A stretch of 64,000 bases of DNA from a virus. The stretch lies in IMG/VR virus record IMGVR_UViG_3300027498_000003, positions 60,637 through 124,636 of that record. One strand, given 5' to 3'. The translations under genes and the position numbers were made by a program. The notes beneath the pieces are model-generated. The model was given only the letters and a program-made list of their open reading frames with translations, searched no databases and was not told the DNA's origin. Of the stretch, positions 13,678 through 34,010 are shown one piece after another. Within the stretch, counting starts at the first letter, position 1. Each line of letters opens with the position of its first letter.

Positions 13678-14132
13678 TATAATTCTATGAATTCTCGTAA
13701 GGGATAAGGATATGGCTCCATCATTGTCATATTCCCTTCTCTCATTTTCCAGAGGAATGTTCTCTTATGCCTAGTAGTACGGTCACTTGTCTGGAATGTC
13801 ATTATCTTTCTATTCAATAAAGTTGAATCTTTTGTGTGGGCCCATTTTAGTTGGAAATACTTACCGTCAGGTGGTACGAGGCCTCCTCTGAATTTCCATG
13901 GGGCTATGAATAAATCCCCGCCACTATTAGGGAGGGTTAGATGGAACTTATGGGTGAACATAAGCTCAAACATGGCCTTAAACATTAACCTTATGAACTT
14001 AGTGTAAGTCTTCTTACTTACCTTTCCTCCTGTGTTATCTTGGTAACTATTGTAAAAATCATTAACAATAACTCTCATACGGGTATGACTTCTTTGATTT
14101 CTTTTTATTAATATTCTTTCCTCCTGTATCAT
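13677..14132 (-). CDS. IHF/HU-like DNA-binding protein (crAss-like tail-module IHF homologue)
   Basis: 151 aa, basic, helix followed by FHLTLPNSGGDLFI. Lies between two ring genes, as in crAss-like phages. Confidence 0.55.
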   Translation of the reverse strand: MIQEERILIKRNQRSHTRMRVIVNDFYNSYQDNTGGKVSKKTYTKFIRLMFKAMFELMFTHKFHLTLPNSGGDLFIAPWKFRGGLVPPDGKYFQLKWAHTKDSTLLNRKIMTFQTSDRTTRHKRTFLWKMREGNMTMMEPYPYPLREFIEL

Positions 14133-14916: not shown

Positions 14917-15807
14917 CTATGAGCTGCCGGCGATGATGGTATCTAATTTATTGTATAATGTTCTTAATGAGCTCAATTCTGACTGAATAGCCGTCATATC
15001 AGCCTGTAGGCTCTGCAATGCGGTGTTTATGTCACATATCGATACTCCGTCGCAAGTTGTATCGATTCCATCTAAAGTGTCAGTTAAATCGGCTAATTTG
15101 GCGTTTTGATCTGCTATGATGGAATCTATGCCTTGGATTCCATTGCTTTCCACGCTTTCCTGCGTTCTGAGGCGGTATTTGATATCATCCACACATTCCT
15201 GTAGGAAATCCATTCTATCATCTGAGGATGAAAATCCCCCGGTTTGGATGGTTTGCCCTGAGATGAACTCCTCTTTATCCGAGGTCGCGTCTCTGATGAT
15301 CTTTTCGAAATCTATCTTTACCTCCTGGCCATCTTTTACACATGTTCCCTGCACTCTCAAAGTTACAGGCAGATCTGATGGTTTTACGGTGAATACTCCT
15401 GTTTCGGTGGATTGATTCCCTAAAGTAGTACTCCCATTGCTTATAGAGACGTTAGAGAAACACTTATCGCAGCCTATGCTCGCTATTGCTGGGGCCACGT
15501 TGTAATGGACCTCTACGGAACTGTCTGAGGCTTTAGTACCGTATGTAATAGGTGAATCTATCTGAATCTGCCTAGTTACGGGTGCTGAGCTTGATTGAGT
15601 CGTAGATGTAATAGAATCTCCGGAAGACACTTCTGCGCATGGATCCGCCGTAGCACAGGGATCCTCTTTCCAAGCCTTAAGTTCATCAATACTTGTTTGA
15701 TGCTCATCTAATATAGCTTGAACAGAATCCCCGTTCTTGTCTACCAAACACTTTATGTTCTTTGGCATACAATCCCCTACTAATTTTCTACTATCTTTTG
15801 TTGGCAT
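14917..15807 (-). CDS. Putative fibre protein with coiled-coil ends, 296 aa
   Basis: Heptad-like C-terminus (LQSLQADMTAIQSELSSLRTL), beta-rich middle, tail-module location. Confidence 0.45.
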   Translation of the reverse strand: MPTKDSRKLVGDCMPKNIKCLVDKNGDSVQAILDEHQTSIDELKAWKEDPCATADPCAEVSSGDSITSTTQSSSAPVTRQIQIDSPITYGTKASDSSVEVHYNVAPAIASIGCDKCFSNVSISNGSTTLGNQSTETGVFTVKPSDLPVTLRVQGTCVKDGQEVKIDFEKIIRDATSDKEEFISGQTIQTGGFSSSDDRMDFLQECVDDIKYRLRTQESVESNGIQGIDSIIADQNAKLADLTDTLDGIDTTCDGVSICDINTALQSLQADMTAIQSELSSLRTLYNKLDTIIAGSS

Positions 15808-15817
15808 AGTTTACATA

Positions 15818-18800
15818 TTAAGAACACGAAGCTGATAAGCTCCAGAATGTGTTTGTATTACATTCTTGGCACCCCGTACACCCTCCACTTATTGATATAC
15901 TCACAGTGTCTCCCGCATTTACGGATAAGGTAGTAGTAAAGACGCCTGCAGGAGGATAATCAAATTCCAAAATTCCGCAATTCGCTGTGCACAGCGTTCC
16001 TATGCCGTCTGAACTTATACATCCACTGGTAATTGGCGTACCACCATTGACGCTTATCGTTATACTGTCAGGCGTACCTGTTGTGTCGAATGATAACGAT
16101 AAAGTGCCATTACCGCTCGCTGTGAATGTCTGGCTAATGCTTCCAGATGATCCACTAAATGCTGTACTTATGTCTTGGCAAGTGTCATTTAGGCTTCCGA
16201 TACTTCCTACGCATGTGCACTCTGCGTTTAAAGATTGCCCACTCGGGCACGTTGCTGTTCTTAGTATTTTCGCACCTCCCTCGTCTTCGCAACAGCAAGG
16301 TGCATTAGATGAGGTACTGTCGCATACTGGACTATTACCACATGGATCATCAACTACACAAGTAGTTCCATTACACGTAGACCCTGCGGCGCATCCTGTA
16401 CCTACTACAGTCCAGCATGGGTTACCGCTATCATCTACACACTCTGAATTTGAATCAGTAGAAAATGTGGTTGATCCGCATGCCACGCCTGACGGGCTTG
16501 GCGCATTGGACGGGCCACAAGCTCCTGAACAATTCTGGCTACATGGATTAGGGCTACAAGTCGAGTTATCCCCTTGATAAACTCCTGCGGTCCCATTTAT
16601 GGTCTGCAAACAGTCTGCCTGTGTGACCCCTTCTGTACAGCTCTCTCCTCTACAACAAGCTCCTGTAGGATCTCCTCCTGTATCACAATCTCTGACAACT
16701 ACATTACTAACTTTAAATTTGCAATCACTGTTATTCGGATCTATAAATGTTACTGAATATATATTAGCACTTGGATTAGTAGTAATACTCTGAGTAGTAA
16801 ATGTATTTCCATTATATTCCCAAAGGTAATTATATCCGGACGTAGCCGTTAATGTGGCTGTCTCGTTATTGTTGGTGCAAATAGGGGTTGGGCTTTGGGT
16901 CACTCCTACTCCCATAAAATCAGGACAATCTGAGTTGCAGAATTCTGAGACAGTAACAAATAGTTTTTTTCCGCAGCCTTGTATATTGTCATTGGTAATT
17001 GTCACTATGTAGTTGCCATCCGAAGTAGCTGTTATGCTTTGCTGATTCGTAGCGCCGCTTATAGTGCCTCCACTCGATGTTGACCAGCTGTAGCTGGTAA
17101 CAACACCTGAATGTGCTACACTTAATATTATACTCCCATTACCATCAAAACATGCTTGATCTGGTCCTGATATCTTCGCATCATCCAAGTTACAATCTGT
17201 GCTGGCGCATTCTGGGCATGAGCCCTCTTTACAATCAGTAGCTGTACTTTCTTGGCAGTCTGCTAAACTATTAAACTGTTGAGAGCATTCCGGCCCATTC
17301 TGCCCTTGTATACACCCAAATGAAGGAGCAGACGAGCAGTAATCATTAGTGTCAGTTACCGTGACTGTTACTGAGCAATTCGCGGCCAAACCATTCACAC
17401 TTACTGGAATAGTAAAGGATTGACCTACATCTGCACAATTAAAAGTTTGTGGAGGTATACTTAACGAAGTACATACCCCCGTAGCTTTGGCAATTAGATT
17501 TTGAGTTCTAAATGCGACGTTTTTATCAGAAGTTATATTTGCTGTATAACTTAATTCTAATTCATTTGAGCAGTTATTAGGGTCACATTCTGCTTGAGTA
17601 TCTTTTATCTCGCAATAGCACCCAGATTGGGTATAGGTCTCGTTTACTCCGTAGAAAGTATTACATGCTGAGCAATCTGTCCCTAATACACTACCAGTGG
17701 GGTTCTGTGCGCATGTAACGTAATCATTACAACTTGTTCCATCAGAATTTGGCTGAGTACATCCTGTGCAGTTTAAAGGTTCAGGCAGTATAGTTACTTC
17801 GTCTGTAGTTGTACAGAACTCACCATTATCTACAATTATTGTGTAATTCCCTGCAGGAAGATTTGAAGCCGAAGATGTACCAACAACAGAATTAGAGCTA
17901 TCTAATATTTGGAAATTTACTCCCCAAGTTGCTGTAACATTTATAGAACTGTTAGGTAAATTAGAAGATGTCACGTTTATAGATGTATCCGTAAGCTCGC
18001 ATGTGTTATTGCCCGTTTCGCATCCTGTAGATTTAGTACCTACTATTTGTGCTGTTGTTTGGTTACCATTAGCGTCGCAGCAAGTTACGTTCTGAGTTCC
18101 ACAATAATTATTTGTATTTATACTACTGCACAGGATGAAATTACAAGGATCTGGTATATCTTCGCAGCAATTTCCGCAACCATTAGGTGCTTGTACTTCT
18201 GATCCATTACAGGTAACATTGCCGCAATCCGGGCCTATTGGGTCGCATCCCAAATCTACAATTACTACATCTTGATCATTCTGACATACCCTCTTTCTGC
18301 ATCTTAAACAGTTTTCAGTAGTAGTCTCCAGCACTGCAGGGCCGCAAGTGTCTGGAATATCAGTAACGATACATTCGCAATTCACATAAAAACCAGCGTC
18401 GCCGCTTGTAACAGTACATGGGTCTCCGTTATCAATACCATTAGGACAGTCTGTAGTAGGGATAATTGGGTCATCTGCTATATCGCAATTCCCTGTAGCT
18501 ATTCCTGAAAATTCACACCCATTAGCATCTGTAACCTTCCATGGTATAGATGTAGTCGCAGCAGGTAGTGATACATTAAATTTACGTGTCCTGCTATTGC
18601 GCACAAAAGGGAAAGCTTGGTTACTTTGAGGATCAAATACCGCGTAAGTTATAGGTAGAGTACCGCCAGATACACTTACTTCATACGACCTAATCGAATA
18701 CACACTACCTGCTATGCCTTTTGTACAATCTGAAGCCGGCTCTGTGAACGCAAAAGTAGCCGATATGTCGCAGCAAGATGCAGTTGATGGTAAACCGAAG

Positions 18801-21142
18801 TCTACAGTTTCTCTATAACATTCCCCTTGCCCATCTCCATATACCACTATAGCTGACGCAGATGTTAGAGTTCTCGGTATTGTGTATTGGGAGTTATAGA
18901 TATCTGTATTATTATAGAATACATTTATAACCCCGTTACCGCCTGTAGAGTTGATAACTCTCTCCCCTCCTGCACATTCTGCAACTATCTGAGGTTTATC
19001 TAATGAAGCCTCTAAAGACATATCATAAGTACATCCTATATCCCCAGTATTAACGCAATTCATTTCTACAGTTACCGAAGTTATAGGTTCGGTATAAGTT
19101 AAATTATCATCATAAGGAAGTTGGTCCCTCATAGATAGATTAGACAGTATTGCCGTTCCATTTAGTTTAATGTTAAATGTATTCGCATCATTAACATCGC
19201 ATGAATCAGGTATCTGTACTCTTATTTCTGTATTACAGATGTTTAGGGATTCGGCGGTCGACTCTTCTATTGATTTACAGAATACAACATCTTCGGTTGC
19301 ATTACCTTCTCCGCAGCAACAAACTGTAGCTTTATAGGTATGGCATGATTCCAGTCTACCTAATTGATCTCCTAATATTTTACGTTGTAGGTTTTCATCT
19401 TCTAATCCCCCGCCATCTACGCCTTTGAGTACGTGCTCATTTAGATCTGTATATACTCTGATGAAGTCTCCTAAGTCATCTCTATTCCATTCTACAATAG
19501 CATTTCCGCAATCTGAGGAGTTTATAGTATTTGTCTGTACATCTATTTGATTGATGTCAGTTACACGGTAGCTGTAGTACTCTGCTCCGTTATCGCCGCC
19601 CCACGTACAGTTAGAATTACTGTTTTCAGTAGGTTTAAGGATGATATCTACTCTTGCTTCTATATTATTTCCTCCTACTACTGGCCCTAAATTAATAGGA
19701 ACCCCATTGATATCTAAAACATCGGAGCCGTTAAATGATGCTCCTGGGTATTCTATAGATTTAGTAACTACTGTTCGAGTTCTCGTCTGCCCGCCGCCTA
19801 AATCGATAACTATCTCTTGTAGATAAGAAACTCTAGCACAAACACTGCCTGATGTAGGTATCTCCTGATCGTTACCAACAACTTTATTGTCTTGTCGCTC
19901 GTCAGAGAGATTGCTACCGTTTTTCTTGAACTGCAGACTGAAGTCTACGTTATTTCCAGATATTGTGGGTGTGATCGTTGCCTCAAGAGCTGGGCATGGG
20001 CAACAGTCGTTTGCCCAAGAAGCCTTGAGATCGCAGTTGTTTCCATCTTCTATCTTTTCTAATGTAACAGATGTGTCACAAGGTTCGCCGTCGTCTACGC
20101 ATTGCCCATCTACACATACTTGACCTACTGGGCATACAATACCTGCACACGGGTCAGGTACACATTGACCTACGTCGTTGCAAATGCATTCTCGGGAGTT
20201 AGCTCCTCCGCAGGCAGACGCTCCCTCTTCTACACAGCTAAAATCTGAGCAATTCTTACAGTAGCATTGCAGAGCGTTTGCTTCGGCACAAACAGCTCCC
20301 GCTTCACTGCATCCTCCTGTCTGGCAATCACATTCTTCTCTACATCCTAATCCATCAATACAAATCCTTCCTGCTCCGCAATCTACGGGCACTATTGTAC
20401 CATAGCCGGTACAAGAATCTATATTTTGGCAACTTTCGCAGGTTGATAACGGTGTAGACCCATTACAAGATCCTATGGGAATAGGTACACATTCCCCTGT
20501 ACAAGTATCTAATGTGTAACCGTCACAGCACACGCATTTGTTACCTTCACACTTTCTGCATCCTTTAGTCTGATCACAATGTCCATCTAAAGTACATTCT
20601 ACACAGGCTTCTGTTTCTGGATCGCACTGACTGTCTGGGCATTTAGGTAGGCATGTCCCTCCTACGCAATCATAGCACGGCGGGCATGGATTATCATTAT
20701 CACAATCTACGCAGCAATCTCCGTTAGGGATTCTTCCTGTAGGACATACACAATTACCATTTCTACAGATTTGATCGCAAGGACATGGAGTATTATCATC
20801 GCACTCCGCACATTGACCATTAAAGCAGGCTTGGTCTGGGCATAAGTCTACACATACACCTCCTATACAATCTTGGCATGGCCCACATTCGCCTTTATCG
20901 CTACAAAGACATATGGTTTGAATATCTCTACATGTTTCGCAGCCTGCGTCATTGCATACTACATCAAAGTCGAAACAAGTCTGGCCCTCCAATTCTGGGT
21001 GTAGTTGTATTGTATATAGATCTCCATCAATGCAGTTTATGGCCACATTAGTGTAGCCTCTTAGTTTAACATCCAGATTCTTGCACGTACTGCCATCCGG
21101 TCTTGTGGCGCTAATTCTAAATTGCTTTTTAAGGAGACTCAT
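15818..21142 (-). CDS. Giant cysteine-rich putative tail fibre/appendage protein, 1774 aa
   Basis: 68 Cys in the first ~385 aa by hand count, C-x2-C-x3-6-C repeats alternating with Ig/PKD-like beta blocks (YSWST, YLWEY...TTQSI), no signal peptide, tail-module location. Confidence 0.6.
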   Translation of the reverse strand: MSLLKKQFRISATRPDGSTCKNLDVKLRGYTNVAINCIDGDLYTIQLHPELEGQTCFDFDVVCNDAGCETCRDIQTICLCSDKGECGPCQDCIGGVCVDLCPDQACFNGQCAECDDNTPCPCDQICRNGNCVCPTGRIPNGDCCVDCDNDNPCPPCYDCVGGTCLPKCPDSQCDPETEACVECTLDGHCDQTKGCRKCEGNKCVCCDGYTLDTCTGECVPIPIGSCNGSTPLSTCESCQNIDSCTGYGTIVPVDCGAGRICIDGLGCREECDCQTGGCSEAGAVCAEANALQCYCKNCSDFSCVEEGASACGGANSRECICNDVGQCVPDPCAGIVCPVGQVCVDGQCVDDGEPCDTSVTLEKIEDGNNCDLKASWANDCCPCPALEATITPTISGNNVDFSLQFKKNGSNLSDERQDNKVVGNDQEIPTSGSVCARVSYLQEIVIDLGGGQTRTRTVVTKSIEYPGASFNGSDVLDINGVPINLGPVVGGNNIEARVDIILKPTENSNSNCTWGGDNGAEYYSYRVTDINQIDVQTNTINSSDCGNAIVEWNRDDLGDFIRVYTDLNEHVLKGVDGGGLEDENLQRKILGDQLGRLESCHTYKATVCCCGEGNATEDVVFCKSIEESTAESLNICNTEIRVQIPDSCDVNDANTFNIKLNGTAILSNLSMRDQLPYDDNLTYTEPITSVTVEMNCVNTGDIGCTYDMSLEASLDKPQIVAECAGGERVINSTGGNGVINVFYNNTDIYNSQYTIPRTLTSASAIVVYGDGQGECYRETVDFGLPSTASCCDISATFAFTEPASDCTKGIAGSVYSIRSYEVSVSGGTLPITYAVFDPQSNQAFPFVRNSRTRKFNVSLPAATTSIPWKVTDANGCEFSGIATGNCDIADDPIIPTTDCPNGIDNGDPCTVTSGDAGFYVNCECIVTDIPDTCGPAVLETTTENCLRCRKRVCQNDQDVVIVDLGCDPIGPDCGNVTCNGSEVQAPNGCGNCCEDIPDPCNFILCSSINTNNYCGTQNVTCCDANGNQTTAQIVGTKSTGCETGNNTCELTDTSINVTSSNLPNSSINVTATWGVNFQILDSSNSVVGTSSASNLPAGNYTIIVDNGEFCTTTDEVTILPEPLNCTGCTQPNSDGTSCNDYVTCAQNPTGSVLGTDCSACNTFYGVNETYTQSGCYCEIKDTQAECDPNNCSNELELSYTANITSDKNVAFRTQNLIAKATGVCTSLSIPPQTFNCADVGQSFTIPVSVNGLAANCSVTVTVTDTNDYCSSAPSFGCIQGQNGPECSQQFNSLADCQESTATDCKEGSCPECASTDCNLDDAKISGPDQACFDGNGSIILSVAHSGVVTSYSWSTSSGGTISGATNQQSITATSDGNYIVTITNDNIQGCGKKLFVTVSEFCNSDCPDFMGVGVTQSPTPICTNNNETATLTATSGYNYLWEYNGNTFTTQSITTNPSANIYSVTFIDPNNSDCKFKVSNVVVRDCDTGGDPTGACCRGESCTEGVTQADCLQTINGTAGVYQGDNSTCSPNPCSQNCSGACGPSNAPSPSGVACGSTTFSTDSNSECVDDSGNPCWTVVGTGCAAGSTCNGTTCVVDDPCGNSPVCDSTSSNAPCCCEDEGGAKILRTATCPSGQSLNAECTCVGSIGSLNDTCQDISTAFSGSSGSISQTFTASGNGTLSLSFDTTGTPDSITISVNGGTPITSGCISSDGIGTLCTANCGILEFDYPPAGVFTTTLSVNAGDTVSISISGGCTGCQECNTNTFWSLSASCS

Positions 21143-22001
21143 TGTCTAATATCTTTTTTGCGTTAAGAGGTGCTTTATCCTCTATAATGACATCTAATCC
21201 TAATTTCCCCTGCGATAAAGATATACCGTGTTGGTATACAATGTTTAAAGCCGCCGTAGTTAGCCCCGTATCCAGGCACTCGGCGACTATCTTTAATTCA
21301 TCACTGCTTACTTCACTAACAATCGCATTCAATATTAGATTCTTTTTTTCTTCTGAAAATTCTATTTTGAGCTTTACCGACTCATCTTTGTGTTCTACAG
21401 AATTTATATTAAGTCTTATCGGATTCTCTGTTTTAGTAATGTCTTCTGCGTGTATAGACAGGCTTGATAAGGGTATTTCCTCTGTTGCTATATCTACTAT
21501 TAGTTTGTTAGGTAGGCTTTTTATAGCCTCGAAGTTTACGTTTATCCCGGCGCAGAAGTCTATTAGGCACTTTTCCCATACTTCATATGCGAAACAATTT
21601 GGGTTAGCTAATTTCCAAATCTCTCTATTGGATTCATCTTTTTCGCAGAGCTCATACTGACCTTGGCATCCCATAGATGCAAGTTTTATCTTCTCTCTCA
21701 GCTTAGTTAGGTCTTCACACTTTAAGCAGGGCTGATACCCCTGTGATAGTTTGTCTTTCTCATCCTCTAGTACTTCTAAATAAGTGCACAGATCTTCTAC
21801 GTCTTTGTCTATAGTAGAGCTACATTCGTGCCCCCAGCTATCCCTTCTTAGTTTCTGCTCGGACAATATAGACAGTTTATTGTATCCTGCTTGTAGATCC
21901 TTTGAAATGCCAAAAGTGCTGCAACATTTAGAGTTGTCAGCACATTGGTTAGCACTCTCTGAGCATGCGGTATGTTGTATGCCTTTCTTTAACATCCGCA
22001 T
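21129..22001 (-). CDS. Putative tail hub-like protein, 290 aa
   Basis: Helical Cys-containing N-terminus (YNKL...K...WGHEC...LCTYL) reminiscent of crAss-like hub proteins; beta-repeat C-terminus. Confidence 0.35.
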   Translation of the reverse strand: MRMLKKGIQHTACSESANQCADNSKCCSTFGISKDLQAGYNKLSILSEQKLRRDSWGHECSSTIDKDVEDLCTYLEVLEDEKDKLSQGYQPCLKCEDLTKLREKIKLASMGCQGQYELCEKDESNREIWKLANPNCFAYEVWEKCLIDFCAGINVNFEAIKSLPNKLIVDIATEEIPLSSLSIHAEDITKTENPIRLNINSVEHKDESVKLKIEFSEEKKNLILNAIVSEVSSDELKIVAECLDTGLTTAALNIVYQHGISLSQGKLGLDVIIEDKAPLNAKKILDNESP

Positions 22002-25465: not shown

Positions 25466-25471
25466 ATATTG

Positions 25472-26884: not shown

Positions 26885-26894
26885 TATTTACTTA

Positions 26895-29800
26895 TTAGTA
26901 TGCCCAGTTTATTTCTATCTCTGAGAACGAAGTTATTGTTGCTGCCTCTCCTGTTAATGGATTGACAACATCAGCAGTTATGTTAATTGGGTATATGCCT
27001 GGGCCTGGGAAACATACGACATTATCTAATCTCACTCTACGTCTTGAATCATCTCCTATTGTCGCGCCGTCTGTAGATATGTCTCCTGTATTACCTGCAC
27101 CACCGATCGTGTATGTTGAATTTGTAATTTGCCAATCATTTAAATTGCTATTACCATTGTTTTCAGCAATCCACAATTCCAATCTGTCTAAACAAAAATC
27201 ATTACAAGAAGTGGGGGTGTAGTTCACTCTTCTCGCCTCTACGCCTATAGCAACTCTGTCAGGACCTACTCCGTAGTAAGCCTCTCTATACAAATCTATT
27301 TTACCAATTAAACCATTAATTCTATCATTATCAAACTGCTCTATACAACCTGCGCCTGTGTTACTTTGTATATCAACTATACGTCCTACAGTTTCAATAA
27401 AAACTGGTGCAAGAGGAGGGAAAGGGCTTGCCGTAGTTTGATAATTTTCACAACCTGTTATACTGTAATTCGATAATAAGTTGTCGGCAGCTCCATTAAC
27501 CCCTTCAGTATTTATAAAGACATGTATAGGATCACCGGCAACTGGGTATTCCCTAATTTCTGCATCAAAATTTGATGTTTTACCAAGGGGTATTTTGCAT
27601 ATTTCAGATATATTGTCAGGATTAACTGACTCTATAGGACACGTTGTCGATCCTTGTCCCCCCACAAAAATGTGAGTTTCAAGCTCTTGTGCAAATGTTC
27701 TGCTATCTAATGCCCTTGTAGTGATTGGCGTATTACCGTTTATGCTACTTTGGCCTGTCGCAGCGTATATGTTGCCTGTTGCATTAGCCCAATCTCTCTT
27801 ATTGAAAGAGAAAGATAATCCATTTCCAAAATCTCCTGTTGGAGAGAAGTTAGTTATAGATAAGCCATCTGTCCTATCTGAGGCATAATCTGCGCTACAA
27901 AGAGTCCCTGTTATAGTTTCCCATAAAGTGCCCTCCTCTAAAAACACTTCAAATCTAAATGGCTCTCCGCAAGCTACTAAAGCTCCTGAAGGTGCTTTTA
28001 CATATGATTGACTTCCTGTCGCCGCCACTCCTGTAGTTCCGTTGGTTTCCTCCCAAGCTAACCTTGCCTCTGGATTTTGATTTTCATTAAGTACATTTAT
28101 ATCTGCATCTGAAGTAGAGTTAGGTCCGTTGACTCCATCATTCCCCACTGCTGTTACGACATTTGGTATAAACTCAAATCCTGTTGAATCTGGATCAACT
28201 TGCACAACTACGTCTATTGATTCACAATCTCCCGGAGCTAATGGCCCTGCAAAAGTCCATGTTAATCTAGTTCCTAACGGGTCTATAGCCGTTGTTACAT
28301 TTCCTCCTGCTGCCGTTCCTCCATCATCTGAAGTATAGATCAAAGGTGATTTCAATACATCTGAAGTAGTTATATCTGTTATTGGTCCTGAAGCTGCTGG
28401 CTCATTACACACGGTTATTGTATAAGTAAATGTATCTCCTGCAGCAACTGTACCAGCCTTTACATCATTTGTCTTATCTACTCTTATTTCTCCTATAGGA
28501 GGTGGTGTGAACGTAAAGAGGTCAGTTACTGTGTTTGATATAGTACCGTCTGGGCATTTAATACATGTCTGGATTCCCTCAGCGATTGCTTTACTACAAT
28601 CGGTAGGTCTAACATAAGCTTTTCCGTCGCCTGTTAACGCTACTAACTCTAAATTAGTAGGATTGTCTATGCCTTTTAACACATAGGTTCCATTTCCACT
28701 TGATATTAAATTACCATCTTCATCATAAGTTTCACAAGGGGTGTCATTTGTACTTAAATCAAATACTTGAACTCCACAATTAGACTCCATCTCAAAAGTT
28801 TCACCTGCCTCAGACGTTATAGTTGTTGTACATGCTGGTACGCACCATTCTGCTACGGTTCCGTCTACTGCTGTGTGTGTGAGTGTTTTTGTTCCATCCT
28901 CATTATTTACTACTTCTACTGAATCTGTTCCTACACAAGCTATGACATCTTCGCAAGAAACAAACGTCCCTCCATCACTTCCTATAGTTGCCAAGTTATC
29001 TTCATCAGTTGATGTTACTGTAATATCTACTGTATGATTCGCTGGTCCACTTTGATTTACCCCTGTTGTATCCCCATCTGTAGTAACTACTAAATCAGTT
29101 TCTGGTGGTACTGTAAAAGTGGTTTTGTTCCCTTGAGGGTCTGTTATTATTAAAGTAGTCGGATCGTTAGGGTCTATTATTACGCAACATCCGTTAACTA
29201 TGAATGGATCCGCCGGTGACCCTGTGCCTGTTATAACTACGTTATTTCCTTGTTGTATCGCGGTGACAATTGGGTACACGCTCTCTACTCCCTCCGCATC
29301 AATTATGGTAAGCTCACCTGTAGTTGGGTCGAAACTGCTGCAGCATCCATTTACAATGTAAGGATCTGCAGATGTACCAGTTCCTGTTATCGTAATGTTA
29401 TTGCCCGGTGTAACTGGGGTTATATTGCCTACTGGCACGCATACCACGTTCTCTGTAACTATTGATCCAGTGATGTTATCTACTAAATCAAAGCAGATCT
29501 GAGGATTTGCCGGGTCTGAGTTATCTGGCTTAGGTACGCATTTTAGATCGGTATCTAAGTCTCTTAAACATTCTCTTAATTCTGTTAGGCTAATTCCCTT
29601 TATCTCTACGCTACATGCTATGTCACATCCTGAGCAATCTGTAAATTCCAGGTTTGTCTCTATCTTAAACGGCGCGAGAGAGTCATCTTCTACAATGAAG
29701 CACACCTCTAAAGTTTCCTCGGCACCACAATCCACATCGATATTTCTCCACTCGGTCGTTCCTTGCGTATACGATCCTACTGAAGGATTACTAACTGTGC

Positions 29801-29954
29801 TTGGGTCGATAGCCAGGCCAGGAGGAAGAGTCCAAGTAAATGCGGCTCCAGTTATAGGCGCACCATTACTCGGTGCCTTAATTGTAAAAGGGTGACAAAA
29901 AATGCCACCTGTTTTTATTATACCGTTATATACTGTTGGGGTGCACTTTGCCAT
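26895..29954 (-). CDS. Putative tail fibre/adhesin with DUF11-like Ig domains, 1019 aa
   Basis: IRVDKT...VAAGDTFTYTITVCN...DITTSDVL...LTWTF..PLAPGD...V.V.V matches the DUF11 pattern. Two GNN.(T/V)ITG.G(T/S)..DP(Y/F)IVNGCC repeats. Confidence 0.6.
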   Translation of the reverse strand: MAKCTPTVYNGIIKTGGIFCHPFTIKAPSNGAPITGAAFTWTLPPGLAIDPSTVSNPSVGSYTQGTTEWRNIDVDCGAEETLEVCFIVEDDSLAPFKIETNLEFTDCSGCDIACSVEIKGISLTELRECLRDLDTDLKCVPKPDNSDPANPQICFDLVDNITGSIVTENVVCVPVGNITPVTPGNNITITGTGTSADPYIVNGCCSSFDPTTGELTIIDAEGVESVYPIVTAIQQGNNVVITGTGSPADPFIVNGCCVIIDPNDPTTLIITDPQGNKTTFTVPPETDLVVTTDGDTTGVNQSGPANHTVDITVTSTDEDNLATIGSDGGTFVSCEDVIACVGTDSVEVVNNEDGTKTLTHTAVDGTVAEWCVPACTTTITSEAGETFEMESNCGVQVFDLSTNDTPCETYDEDGNLISSGNGTYVLKGIDNPTNLELVALTGDGKAYVRPTDCSKAIAEGIQTCIKCPDGTISNTVTDLFTFTPPPIGEIRVDKTNDVKAGTVAAGDTFTYTITVCNEPAASGPITDITTSDVLKSPLIYTSDDGGTAAGGNVTTAIDPLGTRLTWTFAGPLAPGDCESIDVVVQVDPDSTGFEFIPNVVTAVGNDGVNGPNSTSDADINVLNENQNPEARLAWEETNGTTGVAATGSQSYVKAPSGALVACGEPFRFEVFLEEGTLWETITGTLCSADYASDRTDGLSITNFSPTGDFGNGLSFSFNKRDWANATGNIYAATGQSSINGNTPITTRALDSRTFAQELETHIFVGGQGSTTCPIESVNPDNISEICKIPLGKTSNFDAEIREYPVAGDPIHVFINTEGVNGAADNLLSNYSITGCENYQTTASPFPPLAPVFIETVGRIVDIQSNTGAGCIEQFDNDRINGLIGKIDLYREAYYGVGPDRVAIGVEARRVNYTPTSCNDFCLDRLELWIAENNGNSNLNDWQITNSTYTIGGAGNTGDISTDGATIGDDSRRRVRLDNVVCFPGPGIYPINITADVVNPLTGEAATITSFSEIEINWAY

Positions 29955-29956
29955 AA

Positions 29957-30430
29957 TTACTTAGTTAAACTTTTTGTACAATCTAATCCTTGATCAAAAC
30001 ATTCTTGTATTTGCTTGCAGGATATTCCTGCTGATATTTTAGTCAATTGGCTTGCCATAAATAGCAAACACTGCTCTTCATCCATCTGAGTAATAGTTAC
30101 CGTCGTCGGGAATACACACTCATTGGTTACTCTTAAATTCAAAGTACCTTCTAATGCTTCATCAGAGCATTGGGTCCCTACTTCTATTGTCTCTGTGTTA
30201 GCATTATAACTACCAATTGATAGCGTGGAGCTTACGTATTCCAATCCCCCTAAATTTACCACATAGCTGACCCCATCTACGCAGGTCTTCGCTACGTCAC
30301 AAGCCACACCCTCCTCGTTCTCGGCAGATCCTATGCCAAAGTACTTTATAGGGACACTTATGATGTCGCCGCATTTAGCAAAATCTAAATGGATGCTTGG
30401 CTGCTGGTATGGTGCTGGTGTCTGTATCAT
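29957..30430 (-). CDS. Small DUF11-like structural protein, 157 aa
   Basis: GGLEYVSSTLSIGSYNANT..IEVG resembles the DUF11 core. Confidence 0.35.
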   Translation of the reverse strand: MIQTPAPYQQPSIHLDFAKCGDIISVPIKYFGIGSAENEEGVACDVAKTCVDGVSYVVNLGGLEYVSSTLSIGSYNANTETIEVGTQCSDEALEGTLNLRVTNECVFPTTVTITQMDEEQCLLFMASQLTKISAGISCKQIQECFDQGLDCTKSLTK

Positions 30431-31009
30431 TTAAGAAATACTTACGTCATTTGGACAATTATCAATCTTCTGCTTAGTAGAAACCTTTCTTTTTGTTGCT
30501 ACTGGGGGCCTACCTATTATAGGTCGGACTCTCACGATTTTATCTTTAACAACAGGCTTAACTGGATTTTCGTAACATATCTGCTCCTCGATAATCACTC
30601 CGCACTCCTCTGCTGGCGGATCCACCTCAACTTCTGGGCATGGTTTCTTTTTAACTTCGATCGTTATTGATGCGATGTTGTTCCCAGTGTCTTCTGTGGT
30701 ACTGGTATATCCTGTTACAGAGTAAGTACCAGATACTATCGTTAAGTCAGTTACGCATGCCTGCCATTGTACGGTGAAAGTCTGATCTGGGTCTTTACAG
30801 TCTTTGTCTCCTATAATCCAAGCAGGCTGACCTTCGGGGCCTAATCCGAATGTAGTACTATTGCCATATACATCCTGAGGGTTGCCTAAGAATGACACAT
30901 CTGCGCCCGGTATGTCAGGCAGCTCAAGCATTACGCCCTTTACGCATTCCTCCAGCCTTATTGTGTTGCTGAATGTTTGGCAGTCTCCTATAGTTGTAAA
31001 TATTGTCAT
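30431..31009 (-). CDS. Hypothetical structural protein (probable start MTIFTT at 31009; track ORF extends to 31102)
   Basis: TAATG stop/start overlap with the upstream gene at 31007-31011 favours the shorter start. Confidence 0.55.
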   Translation of the reverse strand: MTIFTTIGDCQTFSNTIRLEECVKGVMLELPDIPGADVSFLGNPQDVYGNSTTFGLGPEGQPAWIIGDKDCKDPDQTFTVQWQACVTDLTIVSGTYSVTGYTSTTEDTGNNIASITIEVKKKPCPEVEVDPPAEECGVIIEEQICYENPVKPVVKDKIVRVRPIIGRPPVATKRKVSTKQKIDNCPNDVSIS

Positions 31010-31545
31010 TACTTTACTATTATTTGGCCTGAAGTATTCTGAGTCTCTCCTACTATTATTGCTCCCGGCTTTGGTATACATAAGCCTGTACACGGATCGC
31101 ACTTCTCACAAGTTTCATCACAGTTCACACATTTGCATATATCTTCTATGTACGGTGTGATACAGAAATAGACTGTTCTTGTTACTCCGTCCTTGCCTTT
31201 GCAACATGCTTCTATGACAATATCTGAATAGCGATTGGGTTGATCTCCTACTGTAATAAAGCTTAATTCTGTTCCTGTAATCTCTGGATTAGCAAACATC
31301 GTAGAATCATAGGACTCTACTGAGTATGATATTTCTCCTTCGCATACACATGAATCTAATATAAGAGTTGAAAAGTCTACGGATTTAGAATCTCCGCAAG
31401 GTTTAAGAGGGTTGTCAGGATCAGAAGGTACTGTTCCGTCGCATATGTTAAGGCATGAGCATTTCTCTGCCTTAGGAGGGCATGGTGACGATTTACTTGA
31501 GCAAATCGATATACAAAAACAAGGGTCTATTTTCTCGTATGCCAT
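31009..31545 (-). CDS. Cys-rich Ig/cadherin-like structural protein, 178 aa
   Basis: Operon position; beta-sandwich-like core flanked by Cys clusters. Confidence 0.45.
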   Translation of the reverse strand: MAYEKIDPCFCISICSSKSSPCPPKAEKCSCLNICDGTVPSDPDNPLKPCGDSKSVDFSTLILDSCVCEGEISYSVESYDSTMFANPEITGTELSFITVGDQPNRYSDIVIEACCKGKDGVTRTVYFCITPYIEDICKCVNCDETCEKCDPCTGLCIPKPGAIIVGETQNTSGQIIVK

Positions 31546-31554
31546 TTTCTATTT

Positions 31555-32058
31555 TTAACAACATTTGTCGCAACTCTCCATAGATAGATCTTCATCTAAA
31601 GAACTATACAACTCTTTCACTCTTTCAGTCAGTCCCAACTTAGCGCTGGCTTTAACCTCTTTCATCCTCCCCCAAAATTCTGTTTTACCTTGAGCCGTAA
31701 GCTGGGTAATAGAACATAACATTTGAGGAGCTATAAGTTCTGTCTTAGTGAACTCCGTATCCCCCCACTCCCCGTTTTCGCATGATTTACATGCCTTTGC
31801 TTGTATGCAGTATATCCCATCTTCAATGCAGCCAGATACTCCTAAATCTGAATTAGTTATAATCGTAGATCCTGTTGGATTTACTTTTAGAGTAATTGGC
31901 TGGTCACTATCTGGAGCTGTGATGTATATTTCGTGCTCATCGGGGATAGTATAGTTTCCCTCAGTTTGCCACGTAGAAAGATGCACAAACTCTAATGTCT
32001 TTACATCGAGAGTATTTATCTTAAAATCAAAGTCTCCTTTTATACAGCTGCATGCCAC
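31555..32058 (-). CDS. Putative tail hub protein, 167 aa
   Basis: DLG....IEDGIYCI motif and position after the auxiliary capsid gene, as in crAss-like phages. Confidence 0.5.
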   Translation of the reverse strand: MACSCIKGDFDFKINTLDVKTLEFVHLSTWQTEGNYTIPDEHEIYITAPDSDQPITLKVNPTGSTIITNSDLGVSGCIEDGIYCIQAKACKSCENGEWGDTEFTKTELIAPQMLCSITQLTAQGKTEFWGRMKEVKASAKLGLTERVKELYSSLDEDLSMESCDKCC

Positions 32059-32065
32059 TGTTTAA

Positions 32066-32284
32066 TTATTTTACTCCTCCTTCACAAGGTGGTAAAGCTT
32101 TAAAATCTGCTATAGGTAAAGTCTTTACTACTCCGCCCTCTACATAGATAGCCACGGTTTCGCCTGTACATCGATCCTTAATAGTATAGGCCTTTCCGCA
32201 AGTAGAGCAGCCACATGGCTTACATTTCTTGTAGAGCCCTTCTAAAGCTTCTATGGCTAATTCTTTTATTGTACCTCCTAACAT
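32066..32284 (-). CDS. Small Cys-rich virion protein, 72 aa
   Basis: CKPCGCSTCG cluster; tightly packed in the operon. Confidence 0.5.
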   Translation of the reverse strand: MLGGTIKELAIEALEGLYKKCKPCGCSTCGKAYTIKDRCTGETVAIYVEGGVVKTLPIADFKALPPCEGGVK

Positions 32285-32312
32285 GGTTATCTATGTTTAA
32301 CTGTTTAGTTAT

Positions 32313-34010
32313 TTACTCCTTCTCTTCCTCCGGCGGGCACTCTTCGATAGCTTCTGCACACGTCCCTATCTTAGGTACATGACACTTGGTAGCTGAAGAC
32401 TCTGCTAATGCTGTGAAGAATAGTTCTAAAGCTTCTCCGGCAACTGGATGATCTTTATCTACTCCCCATATTGTCTCATAGACGCACACTTGCGGAGTTT
32501 TACCATCTTCGGCCATAGTGCTTCTCTTATTCCTCCACTCATATCTGCAATACTTGCTACTGCACTTAGCACATGTGGCAGCGTTTCTCTCTCTGCCGTA
32601 CTTATCTTTTCTGAGATCACCATGGTATCCCTCTCTTTCTGAGTCATTATTCCACCATTCGCCTTCCGCTTCTCGATTAGCCTCTTCCCATCTCATTATC
32701 CCTCCAGACCCTGTTGGAATCTTAGGCTCCATCAACTCTCTTCCGTATGATACGATGCCGCAGTTGGTGGGGTCCCCTTTAAGTAGTTCAACTTTAAGAA
32801 ATCTTAGGAATGTATCTGGCGGTGGGTCACTTGGTCCACAAGGACAATCACATTCGAATTTATCCTGATCAGCAACCCAAATAATTCCGCAGCAAACTTT
32901 ATTCTCTGCAACAATCGCTTCTACGCATCCTCCGCCTTCACAATCTTTATACCCTGGCTTATCTTTCTTTGTGAAAGGCTCATCAACTTTCAATACATCA
33001 CATGGCTCCAATCCTGCAATAGCAAAACCCTCGTCACAAGTATTGACCATCAGCTGCCTTGGGCAGCAGTCATCTGTTCCTCCAGAAACAAAAGCTGTAC
33101 CACTGTGGGGGCCTAAGATCTCTTTGAACTTACAATTGATTTGGTCTACAATTGTATCTAACTGACCTAAGAATGTTTTATCTCCGGCTGCGTTAGTAGT
33201 ATTCTCAAGTACTACAGTTTCACCGCCTATGGTTACTTCTGTGATTGCAGCAATAGAGTTACAATCATCACAAGAGCACTCTTCTTTGGTCGGCGCAAGG
33301 CAATACACTGGGAAGTAGCAGTTGGCTACCATCCAAGTTACGTTAGTCTTCTCTGTAGGGCATACCGTTTTTATTCCTGGATATCCTATTCCATTATCTC
33401 CTGCGGTTTTTATATTACCCATCAGTTGATCTACCAAATTCATCATTGGTTTCTGGCAACCTCCTTCTCCTGGGCAATCATCACATCCTTGGCAGCATTC
33501 TACAGGTGCAGACGCTTCGTATATCTCATAACCTCTCTCTTCTTCGTCCATCCATGAAGCTATCCTATTATCATGCTTCTTAGCTCTAATAGAAATAGTA
33601 TCTCCGCATTCGAAGCATCCATCGATACCTACATAGCCTATCTGAGGTTGTGGGCATGAATATCCTGTAACATCGATATTGACTAAATCACAAGCAGTCA
33701 TATACTCTCCCGCGATATACCTGATGCCGTTAGCATAATTCTTACCGTACTGAGATTCAAGTTGACCTATAAATATCTGCTCGTCTGTAAGATTCGGTAT
33801 GTCGGTATGGTCGATAGTTGTATACGTATCTCCGTCATAGATGTAAGAGATCCACTGACCCACTTCTCCGGGAAGTACATACTCAGAATCCGCACAATCA
33901 CCTTCGACGCACGGCCAAAGCTCTATGCCTCTTTCTACGAAAGGTAAATCCTTGCATGAGACTAGTACTTTATTTCCTATCTCTGGGGTTACTGTCTTTA
34001 ATGACTGCAT
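32313..34010 (-). CDS. Auxiliary capsid/structural protein (crAss-like), unusually Cys-rich, 565 aa
   Basis: Third gene after the MCP as in crAss-like phages; PTGSGG.MRWEE near the C-terminus. Confidence 0.5.
   Translation of the reverse strand: MQSLKTVTPEIGNKVLVSCKDLPFVERGIELWPCVEGDCADSEYVLPGEVGQWISYIYDGDTYTTIDHTDIPNLTDEQIFIGQLESQYGKNYANGIRYIAGEYMTACDLVNIDVTGYSCPQPQIGYVGIDGCFECGDTISIRAKKHDNRIASWMDEEERGYEIYEASAPVECCQGCDDCPGEGGCQKPMMNLVDQLMGNIKTAGDNGIGYPGIKTVCPTEKTNVTWMVANCYFPVYCLAPTKEECSCDDCNSIAAITEVTIGGETVVLENTTNAAGDKTFLGQLDTIVDQINCKFKEILGPHSGTAFVSGGTDDCCPRQLMVNTCDEGFAIAGLEPCDVLKVDEPFTKKDKPGYKDCEGGGCVEAIVAENKVCCGIIWVADQDKFECDCPCGPSDPPPDTFLRFLKVELLKGDPTNCGIVSYGRELMEPKIPTGSGGIMRWEEANREAEGEWWNNDSEREGYHGDLRKDKYGRERNAATCAKCSSKYCRYEWRNKRSTMAEDGKTPQVCVYETIWGVDKDHPVAGEALELFFTALAESSATKCHVPKIGTCAEAIEECPPEEEKE

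What the first reader, a model, noticed from the sequence alone, without database searches (positions are those of the whole stretch)
14917..34010. A cysteine-armoured virion exterior: ~19 kb of Cys-rich structural genes versus Cys-free ejected proteins
Seen: eight or more extra genes (178, ~192, 157, 1019, 470, 1158, 1774 and 296 aa) are inserted between the hub-like gene and the ring gene. They are packed with short-spaced Cys repeats (68 Cys in the first ~385 aa of the 1774-aa protein), and even the auxiliary capsid, hub, ring and muzzle proteins are Cys-enriched. The 883-aa cargo protein has no Cys, the 496-aa protein has one, and I saw none in the >905-aa partial protein. None of the Cys-rich proteins has a signal peptide, and no thiol oxidase is recognisable in the window. 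Knowledge: tailed phages assemble in the reducing cytoplasm, so EGF-like disulfide ladders are not expected. Inference: an external appendage system stabilised either by disulfides formed on lysis or by metal (Zn/Ca) clusters, while proteins that must unfold through the tail avoid Cys. This is the best candidate for an undescribed system in the window.
Basis: partly seen in the sequence, partly recalled or inferred. Interest (0 to 1): 0.8.

Follow-up and report, generated by a model that had tools for sequence, protein, structure and literature searches.

The report
Cysteine-packed tail fibres of marine crAss-like phage
A marine crAss-like phage builds its tail fibres from EGF-like modules with 7-11% conserved cysteine, made without any export signal or recognisable thiol oxidase, whereas its cysteine-free injected proteins turn out to be an ordinary trait of crAss-like and N4-like phages.

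Summary
Twelve minus-strand genes in 14917-34010 hold 466 Cys in 6,297 aa (7.4%; genome background 1.49%). Four downstream cargo-like proteins hold one Cys in 4,256 aa.

The window is a distant crAss-like podophage from marine metagenomes, with TerL, portal, MCP and Pfam CrAss_Ring_1/Ring_2.

The Cys are structural. 88-97% are kept in a 44-57%-identical sister phage, against 34-52% of other residues. 29 of 30 invariant columns across 18 homologues of the 1774-aa protein are Cys.

AlphaFold gives an Ig-like head followed by a chain of small beta-hairpin modules. These match EGF-like, tenascin, TNFR-Cys and Dickkopf models (AFDB E about 1e-6), giant-virus proteins in BFVD, and no phage protein.

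None of these proteins has a signal peptide. No Trx, Grx, DsbA or Erv family is found in the 126.5-kb record.

Two parts are not new:
- Cys-free ejected proteins also occur in crAss001 and phi14:2, and are published for N4-like phages.
- Disulfide-locked hub and ring proteins were seen in the crAss001 cryo-EM structure.

The new part is the fibres. Described relatives have 1.3% Cys or less there. At least four other crAss-like contigs share the Cys-rich fibre gene.

Best reading: disulfide-laddered fibres oxidised at or after lysis. Zn(Cys)4 clusters remain possible.

The parts
32313..34010 (-). 565-aa conserved structural protein with 38 Cys (6.7%). It is 'hub-like' by position only; its family is unassigned.
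   Evidence: Searches give the counts. Eight homologues were found. In the 10-sequence alignment, 11 of 21 invariant columns are Cys. There is no Pfam or PHROG hit. hhalign found no relation to crAss001 THA gp38 or phi14:2 g081.
32066..32284 (-). 72-aa ORF with 6 Cys, including CKPCGCSTC.
   Evidence: The gene is called in the near-identical contig L002. Translation.
31555..32058 (-). 167-aa protein with 10 Cys (6.0%).
   Evidence: Counterparts in L011 (169 aa, 5.3% Cys) and L012 (171 aa, 6.4%) are matched by position and size only.
31009..31545 (-). 178-aa protein with 20 Cys (11.2%), the densest in the block.
   Evidence: Counterparts in L011 (163 aa, 9.8% Cys) and L012 (151 aa, 7.9%) are matched by position and size only.
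30431..31009 (-). 192-aa protein with 8 Cys. Its ATG start overlaps the stop of the 178-aa gene.
29957..30430 (-). 157-aa protein with 9 Cys (5.7%) and a weak DUF11/CLIPPER-like beta-sandwich match.
   Evidence: PF01345, E 5.6e-4, below the gathering cut-off.
26895..29954 (-). 1019-aa fibre or appendage protein with 35 Cys (3.4%). It has a DUF11/CLIPPER domain at residues 492-614.
   Evidence: PF01345, 30.7 bits against a cut-off of 24.6. Also.
25472..26884 (-). 470-aa protein with 33 Cys (7.0%), 26 of them in residues 100-300.
   Evidence: In the L001 orthologue 90% of the Cys are conserved, against 38% identity for other residues.
21989..25465 (-). 1158-aa fibre protein with 122 Cys (10.5%). 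Residues 51-265 form about 7 repeats of about 32 aa carrying up to 8 Cys each. Residues 538-562 carry a GCTDxxACNF...DDGSC motif shared with T9SS adhesins. A 321-nt (107-aa) tandem duplication lies at 22436-23029.
   Evidence: Only two homologues of the whole protein exist among 5.8 billion proteins.
21129..22001 (-). 290-aa protein with 14 Cys (4.8%). A gene of this family lies directly upstream of the big Cys-rich fibre gene in related phages too.
   Evidence: Searches show the same gene pair in L001, L012 and L013.
15818..21142 (-). 1774-aa fibre protein with 167 Cys (9.4%). It has an N-terminal Ig-like domain (residues about 1-80), then an EGF/TNFR-like Cys-rich rod (about 60-360, 68 Cys), then Ig/PKD-like and further Cys-rich regions.
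   Evidence: 19 homologues. 29 of 30 invariant columns are Cys. The AF2 model has pLDDT 80-92 over residues 1-300. Fold searches.
14917..15807 (-). 296-aa protein with 10 Cys (3.4%), the last gene before Ring 2.
   Evidence: Weak phrog_7599 match.
14132..14860 (-). Crassvirus tail ring protein 2, 242 aa, 8 Cys (3.3%).
   Evidence: PF25702, 47.5 bits against a cut-off of 27. phrog_9863. BLASTP match to phi14:2 g074.
13677..14132 (-). 151-aa Cys-free protein between the two ring genes. It occupies the position of the IHF/HU-like gp42 (crAss001) and g073 (phi14:2).
   Evidence: This rests on synteny only; there is no family hit.
12607..13677 (-). Crassvirus tail ring protein 1, 356 aa, 11 Cys (3.1%).
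   Evidence: PF24228, 31.3 bits against a cut-off of 27.
6850..12528 (-). 1892-aa muzzle-like distal tail protein with 58 Cys (3.1%).
   Evidence: phrog_15100 'virion structural protein', E 3.5e-13. Its position after Ring 1 matches gp44 (crAss001) and g071 (phi14:2).
1..6857 (-). Cys-free cargo or ejection proteins: 496 aa (1 Cys), 883 aa (0 Cys) and 920 aa (0 Cys, runs off the window). A 1957-aa protein with 0 Cys continues outside the window.
   Evidence: phrog_7595 and a weak 'DNA pilot' match for the 496-aa protein.

Best explanation
The block encodes the tail-fibre and appendage set of a marine crAss-like podophage. Much of these proteins consists of small Cys-rich modules. The 1774-aa protein has an Ig-like N-terminal domain followed by about 300 aa of EGF/TNFR-like beta-hairpin modules. 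The 1158-aa protein has about seven 32-aa repeats with up to 8 Cys each.

The proteins are made in the host cytoplasm, because they lack signal peptides. The Cys most likely pair into local, intramodule disulfides once the reducing power of the cell is lost, at or after lysis in oxic, slightly alkaline seawater. This would turn the fibres into rigid, protease- and shear-resistant rods. The moderately Cys-enriched ring, muzzle-like and 565-aa proteins would be locked together in the same way, as seen in crAss001.

The proteins that must travel unfolded through the tail and the periplasm are kept Cys-free so that they cannot be cross-linked.

Shown here: composition, conservation, synteny, predicted fold class, absence of export signals and of known thiol-redox genes, and marine origin.

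Inferred: presence in the virion, the disulfide chemistry, and when oxidation happens.
For: Identity of the phage and its operon:
- TerL, portal and MCP PHROG hits.
- CrAss_Ring_1 and CrAss_Ring_2 above Pfam cut-offs.
- The nearest cultured relative by TerL is the marine phage phi14:2.
- phi14:2 keeps its MS-verified tail and structural genes in the same position.

Composition:
- 7.4% Cys in the block against 1.49% background.

Selection on the Cys:
- 88-97% of Cys are conserved in L001 orthologues, against 34-52% of other residues.
- 29 of 30 invariant columns in 18 homologues are Cys.
- 11 of 21 invariant columns in the 565-aa family are Cys.
- Several Cys gains and losses between orthologues come in nearby pairs, such as 195/206 and 232/250 in the 1774-aa protein and 432/452 in the 1158-aa protein.

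Fold:
- The AF2 model has mean pLDDT 75, and 80-92 over residues 1-300.
- AFDB hits at E 1e-6 to 3e-5 are to EGF-like, tenascin-X, nidogen, TNFR-Cys, Dickkopf_N and follistatin-like models.
- PDB and Atlas top rows are of the same classes.

Chemistry and context:
- His is only 0.3% of these proteins, so mixed Cys/His metal sites are unlikely.
- The 1158-aa protein carries a motif shared with T9SS-secreted Bacteroidota adhesins.
- The DNA is found in marine metagenome runs of three studies, one of which may be the source sample.

Precedents:
- Disulfides between hub, ring and PVA proteins were seen in crAss001 virions (PMC10172136).
- Tail fibres of cyanophage Pam3 are disulfide-linked to the baseplate and released by DTT (PMC9942802).

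Clade-wide pattern:
- L001, L011, L012 and L013 are other crAss-like contigs with the same Cys-rich fibre gene.
Against: - There is no direct evidence that these proteins are in virions or that any Cys is oxidised.
- Dozens of disulfides per chain would have to form correctly without a recognised catalyst. No Trx, Grx, DsbA, Thioredoxin_4 or Erv family was found.
- The Erv search had no positive control, and the record is only about 74% complete.
- CxxC spacings are frequent, for example CxxCxxCxGGxC, and would also suit Zn(Cys)4 sites that can fold in a reducing cytoplasm.
- Fold matches have low TM-scores because the rods are flexible, and PDB matches were not significant (E >= 6e-3).
- Cys parity per N-terminal region was 11 even to 7 odd, which is inconclusive.
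Confidence: 0.55

Rival explanations
1. The modules are metal-cluster rods. The Cys bind Zn, or another thiophilic metal, in Cys4 sites or metallothionein-like clusters. The fibres would then fold and assemble fully inside the reducing cytoplasm and need no oxidation step.
For: - The proteins are cytoplasmic, with no signal peptide, and no oxidase is recognisable.
- CxxC and CxC spacings are abundant.
- Some Cys are lost or gained in groups of four or more.
- Cys conservation would be equally strong under this model.
Against: - No zinc-finger or zinc-ribbon Pfam family is hit, even at E <= 10.
- Structural neighbours are all disulfide-type extracellular modules.
- Several Cys changes occur as isolated pairs.
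- His is nearly absent, so every site would have to be all-Cys.
- Thiolate-metal sites exposed for long periods to oxic seawater are prone to oxidation.
- crAss001 tails use disulfides (PMC10172136).
Confidence: 0.22
2. The Cys serve mainly for inter-subunit covalent cross-links or as a redox trigger. The cross-links would be fibre to hub, fibre to fibre, or ring to muzzle, as in Pam3 and the crAss001 hub. Reduction at the host surface would release or re-arrange the fibres and start ejection.
For: - Pam3 fibres detach and tails contract on DTT.
- crAss001 has hub-hub, hub-ring and R1-R2 disulfides.
- Ring1, Ring2 and the muzzle-like protein here hold 3% Cys, against 0.7-2.2% in crAss001.
- Several proteins have an odd number of Cys, for example 167 in the 1774-aa protein.
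Against: - 60-80 Cys packed at 2-6-residue spacing in repeated modules is far more than cross-linking needs.
- The predicted fold places them inside small modules.
- This reading adds to the main one rather than replacing it.
Confidence: 0.12
3. The large Cys-rich proteins are not virion parts. They would be lysis-released or cell-surface proteins, such as adhesins, decoys or biofilm factors, that happen to be encoded inside the structural operon.
For: - There is no family assignment for most of them.
- They share a motif with cellular T9SS adhesins.
- The gene content of this region varies among relatives.
Against: - They are tightly packed and co-oriented between head and ring genes.
- The same position holds MS-verified structural proteins in phi14:2.
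- They have no signal peptide and no T9SS C-terminal domain.
- The fibre family is found only on crAss-like contigs among those inspected.
Confidence: 0.05

Closest known systems
Bacteroides phage ΦcrAss001 tail (Bayfield et al. 2023, PMC10172136)
   Same: It has the crassvirus ring 1 and ring 2 proteins, with a muzzle-like giant protein after them. Disulfides stabilise the hub, ring and PVA proteins: THA gp38 has 5.1% Cys and gp57 has 4.8%. The cargo and RNAP proteins gp45-gp50 are almost Cys-free, at 7 Cys in 7,478 aa.
   Different: The crAss001 fibre proteins gp22-gp26 have 0.3-1.3% Cys and no Cys-rich repeat arrays, and its muzzle has 0.7% Cys. Here the fibres have 7-11% and the muzzle 3.1%. 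Portal identity is only about 20%. The fibre genes lie elsewhere in the crAss001 genome.
Cellulophaga phage phi14:2 (marine Crassvirales)
   Same: It is the nearest cultured relative by TerL (26% identity over 88%) and is also marine. Its tail and fibre genes also sit between the head-proximal genes and the ring genes. Its cargo and RNAP proteins g065-g070 hold 6 Cys in 6,990 aa.
   Different: Its structural proteins g080-g087 hold 0.2-3.2% Cys, and none has a Cys-rich array.
Cys suppression in ejection proteins of Schitoviridae (N4 gp50, DEV gp71-73; PMC11445570)
   Same: Giant virion-packaged proteins that are expelled through the tail are essentially devoid of Cys. The published rationale is passage through the disulfide-forming periplasm.
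   Different: It is a different phage family, and no Cys-rich exterior has been reported there. For crassviruses the depletion was computed here; I did not find it stated in the crAss001 paper, where 'cysteine' occurs 0 times.
Cyanophage Pam3 fibre-baseplate disulfides (PMC9942802)
   Same: Tail fibres of an aquatic phage are held by disulfides that exist in released virions and are broken by DTT.
   Different: Only a handful of inter-subunit Cys are involved, it is a myovirus baseplate, and there are no Cys-rich repeat modules.
EGF-like, tenascin, TNFR-Cys and Dickkopf-type disulfide-rich rods, including EGF-like proteins of giant viruses (Pithovirus, Cedratvirus, Tetraselmis virus)
   Same: The predicted architecture is tandem small beta-hairpin modules with 6-8 Cys each. 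Foldseek gives AFDB E about 1e-6 and BFVD E 8.5e-5 to 1e-3.
   Different: There is no sequence-profile match to any Pfam EGF, TNFR or Dickkopf family. Those proteins fold in the ER or periplasm, or in cells with Erv-type oxidases. Here synthesis is in a bacterial cytoplasm with no recognised catalyst.
Bacteroidota T9SS adhesins (CHU_C / SprB-repeat proteins) carrying the GCTDxxACN[YF]...DDGSC motif
   Same: The roughly 24-aa two-disulfide-like motif at residues 538-562 of the 1158-aa protein matches more than 1,000 representative proteins, often in many copies. Some of these carry CHU_C sorting domains.
   Different: The phage protein has one clear copy and no secretion signal. The N-terminal 8-Cys repeats have no cellular homologue.

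Membership tests
Crassvirales-type virion module | Tail ring protein 1 (Pfam CrAss_Ring_1, PF24228) | tested here: met
   The 356-aa protein scores 31.3 bits against a cut-off of 27, E 1.7e-7.
Crassvirales-type virion module | Tail ring protein 2 (Pfam CrAss_Ring_2, PF25702) | tested here: met
   The 242-aa protein scores 47.5 bits against a cut-off of 27. It also matches phi14:2 g074 by BLASTP at 8e-5.
Crassvirales-type virion module | Crass-type TerL, portal and MCP | tested here: met
   phrog_6681 at 1e-42, phrog_6547 at 3e-37 and phrog_11589 at 1e-8. tblastn hits are to Crassvirales only, at 20-26% identity.
Crassvirales-type virion module | Muzzle protein and tail hub proteins THA/THB | tested here: inconclusive
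   The 1892-aa protein matches phrog_15100 (3.5e-13) and sits in the muzzle position, but has no Pfam hit. The 565-aa 'hub-like' protein shows no relation to gp38 by hhalign.
Crassvirales-type virion module | Virion-packaged giant RNA polymerase | tested here: inconclusive
   The 1957-aa Cys-free protein is in the expected position, but has no Pfam hit and no BLASTP hit to gp47-50 or g066.
EGF-like domain superfamily | Match to an EGF-type sequence profile | tested here: not met
   No Pfam family matched, even at E <= 10, for the Cys-rich segments. PDB sequence searches were negative.
EGF-like domain superfamily | Small two-stranded beta-hairpin module fold repeated in tandem | tested here: met
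   The AF2 model shows serial beta-hairpins at pLDDT 80-92. AFDB Foldseek gives E 1e-6 and probability up to 1.0 to EGF-like, tenascin and TNFR-Cys models. PDB hits are of the same class but not significant.
EGF-like domain superfamily | Defined disulfide connectivity (1-3, 2-4, 5-6) | not testable with these tools
   Model coordinates are not returned. Only indirect evidence from paired gain and loss of Cys is available.
Zinc-finger / zinc-ribbon or DnaJ-type CxxCxGxG modules | Profile match to a Zn-binding family; Cys in groups of four with CxxC knuckles | tested here: not met
   There are no Pfam hits. CxxC occurs, but the repeats carry 6-8 Cys with CxC pairs. Metal content is not testable here.
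Phage-encoded cytoplasmic disulfide pathway (Erv/ALR-type oxidase as in NCLDVs, or Trx/Grx/DsbA-like) | Presence of a thiol oxidoreductase gene in the genome | tested here: not met
   Six-frame scans of the 126.5-kb record for PF04777, PF00085, PF01323, PF00462 and PF13462 found nothing. A Pfam scan of 71 upstream ORFs found 14 families, none of them redox. Caveats: the Erv control did not ring, and the record is about 74% complete.
Cys-suppressed ejection proteins (as in Schitoviridae) | Large proteins downstream of the tail genes with near-zero Cys | tested here: met
   1 Cys in 4,256 aa, P about 1e-26. The same holds in crAss001 and phi14:2.

The most novel reading that the evidence does not exclude
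A clade of marine crAss-like phages has built its receptor-binding fibres from eukaryote-like EGF/TNFR-type disulfide-rich modules, with up to about 80 putative disulfides per chain. It matures them by a route not yet described for tailed phages. One possibility is an obligatory oxidative 'curing' step after lysis that switches particles to the infectious, rigid-fibre state. The other is an unrecognised phage-encoded oxidase acting in the bacterial cytoplasm.
Probability: 0.35. Interest if true: 0.8.

Novelty: new variant of a known kind. Interest (0 to 1): 0.6.

Why it matters
Tailed phages assemble in a reducing cytoplasm. Known virion disulfides are few and mostly link subunits.

Fibres made of hundreds of conserved Cys in EGF-like arrays would mean that a whole lineage of abundant marine phages depends on extracellular or late-infection oxidative folding, or on dense metal clusters, for infectivity.

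That would bear on three things:
- how phage particles mature and decay in the sea, through sensitivity to redox state and metals;
- how host-range modules are built;
- whether such modules could serve as very stable, compact scaffolds.

The analysis also shows that the split between a Cys-bearing tail exterior and Cys-free injected proteins is a general crassvirus rule. This can help to annotate cargo proteins in uncultured phages.

Tried and rejected
Searches that found nothing:
- Pfam, PHROGs and PDB sequence searches of the Cys-rich segments gave no usable hits.
- tblastn of the 1158-aa protein against 50,697 phage records gave no match.
- The ESM Atlas search by features gave no usable hit.
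- IMG/VR scans with the 565-aa protein, with alignment A3 and with P0012 found no relatives, or the query was unusable.
- BLASTP of all ORFs against crAss001 and phi14:2 structural proteins gave hits only for TerL, portal and ring 2, plus marginal ones.

Models and comparisons that were weak:
- The first AF2 run, on the 1158-aa N-terminus with 2 sequences, reached only pLDDT 55. Its PDB matches were not significant, although all were tandem EGF.
- hhalign of the 565-aa family against crAss001 THA gp38 and phi14:2 g081 showed no relation, so 'hub' is not confirmed.

Ideas tested and dropped or left open:
- The conserved 290-aa neighbour as a hidden CxxC oxidase is rejected. The CLxC motif is kept in only 3 of 5 homologues.
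- The Cys-parity test on the N-terminal regions gave 11 even and 7 odd, which is inconclusive.
- The Erv/ALR scan found nothing, but its control genomes did not ring either, so this is a weak negative.
- Thioether or radical-SAM type cross-linking was considered, but no maturase family was seen among the Pfam hits. It was not pursued further.

Other:
- Sequencing runs: no RNA holder is listed.


Full report
**What the window is.** The window is bases 60637-124636 of a 126,546-bp IMG/VR virus record that is linear and about 74% complete. The minus strand from about 46.9 kb down to base 1 is one long structural operon. It contains:
- TerL at 41240-43681, portal at 38736-41216 and MCP at 35812-37386, all with PHROG hits;
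- Pfam CrAss_Ring_2 at 14132-14860 and CrAss_Ring_1 at 12607-13677, both above the curated cut-offs;
- a 1892-aa muzzle-position protein (phrog_15100), followed by large proteins with no family.

tblastn of the portal and TerL hits only Crassvirales, at 20-26% identity. The best hit is the marine Cellulophaga phage phi14:2. The DNA of the finding is present in marine-metagenome runs of three studies, one of which may be the source sample. A 99%-identical 61-kb contig exists in an ENA assembly (L002). The phage is therefore a distant, uncultured marine crAss-like podophage.

- The extremes are the 178-aa (11.2%), 1158-aa (10.5%) and 1774-aa (9.4%) proteins. The 1774-aa protein has 68 Cys in its first 383 aa.
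- Ring2, Ring1, the muzzle-like protein and the 241-aa protein hold 3.1-3.7% Cys.
- MCP, portal and the 353-aa post-MCP protein hold 0.6-0.9%. The enrichment is in the tail and appendages, not the capsid.
- The 496-, 883- and 920-aa proteins, plus a 1957-aa protein just outside the window, hold one Cys in 4,256 aa (P about 1e-26).
- None of the Cys-rich proteins has a signal-peptide-like or TM-like hydrophobic stretch.

**Are the Cys functional?** An 11-kb ENA contig (L001) carries orthologues of the 470-, 1158-, 290- and 1774-aa genes in the same order.
- In these pairs, 88-97% of Cys are conserved, against 34-52% of other residues.
- The N-terminal 400 aa of the 1774-aa protein has 19 homologues of 1,100-2,010 aa, with 5.9-12.2% Cys.
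- In an 18-sequence alignment at about 33% identity, 29 of 30 invariant columns are Cys.
- The 565-aa family behaves alike, with 11 of 21 invariant columns being Cys.
- Differences in Cys between orthologues often come as nearby pairs. This fits disulfide partners, but the parity test was inconclusive.

**What are the proteins?** Three homologues lie on crAss-like contigs. L011 is a 128-kb contig with Ring_2 and Ring_1 downstream. L012 has Crass_capsid upstream. L013 has Ring_2 and Ring_1 downstream.
- A 287-290-aa partner gene with about 5% Cys lies directly upstream in L001, L012 and L013.
- L011 and L012 also hold small ORFs with 8-10% Cys and a 516-551-aa homologue of the 565-aa protein.
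- In phi14:2 the same genomic position holds MS-verified tail and structural proteins. The block is therefore the normal fibre locus of this lineage, not an odd insertion.
- Further fibre-like traits are DUF11/CLIPPER beta-sandwich domains and a perfect 321-nt tandem duplication. The near-identical contig carries one copy fewer, giving 1051 aa instead of 1158.
- A 24-aa GCTDxxACNF...DDGSC motif is shared with more than 1,000 representative proteins, some with T9SS CHU_C/SprB domains.

**Fold.** No sequence profile (Pfam, PHROGs, PDB) recognises the Cys-rich parts.
- With the 18-sequence alignment, AlphaFold2 gave mean pLDDT 75, and 80-92 over residues 1-300. The model has an N-terminal beta-sandwich followed by a string of short beta-hairpin modules.
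- Foldseek against AFDB clusters gave E 1e-6 to 3e-5 to EGF-like, tenascin-X, nidogen, TNFR-Cys, Dickkopf_N and follistatin-like models.
- PDB rows were of the same classes but not significant.
- ESM Atlas neighbours were myxobacterial Dickkopf/DUF7107/Stig1 proteins and animal EGF proteins.
- In BFVD the only matches below 1e-3 were to giant viruses of eukaryotes. Phage entries matched only the 90-aa Ig-like head.
- The 1158-aa protein carries about seven 32-aa repeats with up to 8 Cys each. These repeats have just two homologues among 5.8 billion proteins.

**What is already known.**
- Cys-free ejected proteins are general. crAss001 gp45-gp50 hold 7 Cys in 7,478 aa, and phi14:2 g065-g070 hold 6 in 6,990 aa. 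Suppression of Cys in ejection proteins is published for N4-like phages, with the periplasmic disulfide machinery as the rationale (PMC11445570).
- The crAss001 cryo-EM study reports disulfides between hub proteins, between hub and ring, between R1 and R2, and in the gp57 dimer (PMC10172136). Accordingly THA gp38 has 5.1% Cys.
- Pam3 shows DTT-labile fibre-baseplate disulfides (PMC9942802).

The load in the fibres is not known from described relatives. crAss001 gp22-gp26 and phi14:2 g080-g086 hold 0.2-1.3% Cys, and only the small g087 reaches 3.2%. Full-text searches found no paper on EGF-like or Cys-rich phage fibres, or on marine crassvirus disulfides.

**Mechanism.** No Erv/ALR, thioredoxin, glutaredoxin, DsbA or Thioredoxin_4 gene is detectable in the record. 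A Pfam scan of 71 upstream ORFs found no redox family. The Erv control was silent, and a quarter of the genome may be missing.

- *Best reading (0.55).* The fibres are synthesised and attached in the cytoplasm. Their many local Cys pairs oxidise when the cell's reducing power collapses, at or after lysis in oxic seawater at pH about 8. This gives rigid, protease-resistant rods and locks the tail together. Cargo proteins avoid Cys so that they stay extrudable.
- *Main rival (0.22).* The modules are all-Cys metal clusters that fold in the cytoplasm. The frequent CxxC spacing and the lack of an oxidase favour it. The disulfide-type structural neighbours, the near absence of His, the paired Cys changes and the crAss001 precedent weigh against it.
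- *Minor rivals.* Mainly inter-subunit cross-links or a redox trigger (0.12), and non-virion proteins (0.05).

**Verdict.** The cargo half and the hub/ring half are already known in principle. The Cys-laddered EGF-like fibres, shared by a small clade of crAss-like phages, are a new variant of phage tail fibres. They pose a real question about oxidative folding or metal loading of virion proteins.

Noticed in passing
Outside the window: genome 33850-39892 (minus strand; L008:13850-19892): There is a second Cys-rich gene cluster, of 454, 851, 152, 189 and 248 aa at 5.2-8.1% Cys, next to the DNA polymerase A gene. The 152- and 851-aa proteins share their first 76 aa at 50% identity, as alternative fibres with a common anchor would. 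None has a Pfam hit.
   Followed up: partly
window 22436-23029: A perfect 321-nt (107-aa) tandem duplication lies inside the 1158-aa fibre gene. The 99%-identical ENA contig encodes a 1051-aa version, exactly one unit shorter. This is either copy-number variation or assembly collapse.
   Followed up: partly
window 23777-23851 (residues 538-562 of the 1158-aa protein): A 24-aa motif, GCTDSTACNFNPEANCDDGSC, accounts for nearly all of the 1,021 distant hits in 1.8 billion representatives, often with 10-35 copies per protein. Two of the eight hit proteins scanned carry T9SS CHU_C/SprB domains. It looks like a widespread, uncurated mini-domain of marine Bacteroidota surface proteins.
   Followed up: partly
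window 21129-22001, and L001:5317-6159, L012:9171-10034, L013:7962-8825: A gene of 280-290 aa with about 5% Cys always lies directly upstream of the big Cys-rich fibre gene. It may be a fibre partner or an assembly factor. Its CLxC motif is not invariant.
   Followed up: partly
window 13677-14132: A 151-aa Cys-free protein sits between Ring2 and Ring1, in the position of the IHF/HU-like gp42 of crAss001 and g073 of phi14:2. It has no family hit here.
   Followed up: no
Outside the window: genome 50772-53183 (L009:10772-13183): An SNF2/DEAD-type helicase is interrupted by an intein with Hint and LAGLIDADG homing-endonuclease domains.
   Followed up: no
Outside the window: genome 40356-43157 and the upstream 60 kb: The replication module uses a family A DNA polymerase, whereas phi14:2 is annotated with PolB. 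Upstream ORFs include Thg1 (tRNA-His guanylyltransferase), an RNA-repair HAD domain, RecA, DUF932 and Peptidase_M15_3.
   Followed up: no
crAss001 (L003/L004) and phi14:2 (L005/L006): In both cultured crassviruses the cargo and virion-RNAP proteins hold about 0.09% Cys, at least ten times below the other proteins. The word 'cysteine' does not occur in the crAss001 structure paper, so this rule may be unreported for Crassvirales.
   Followed up: yes
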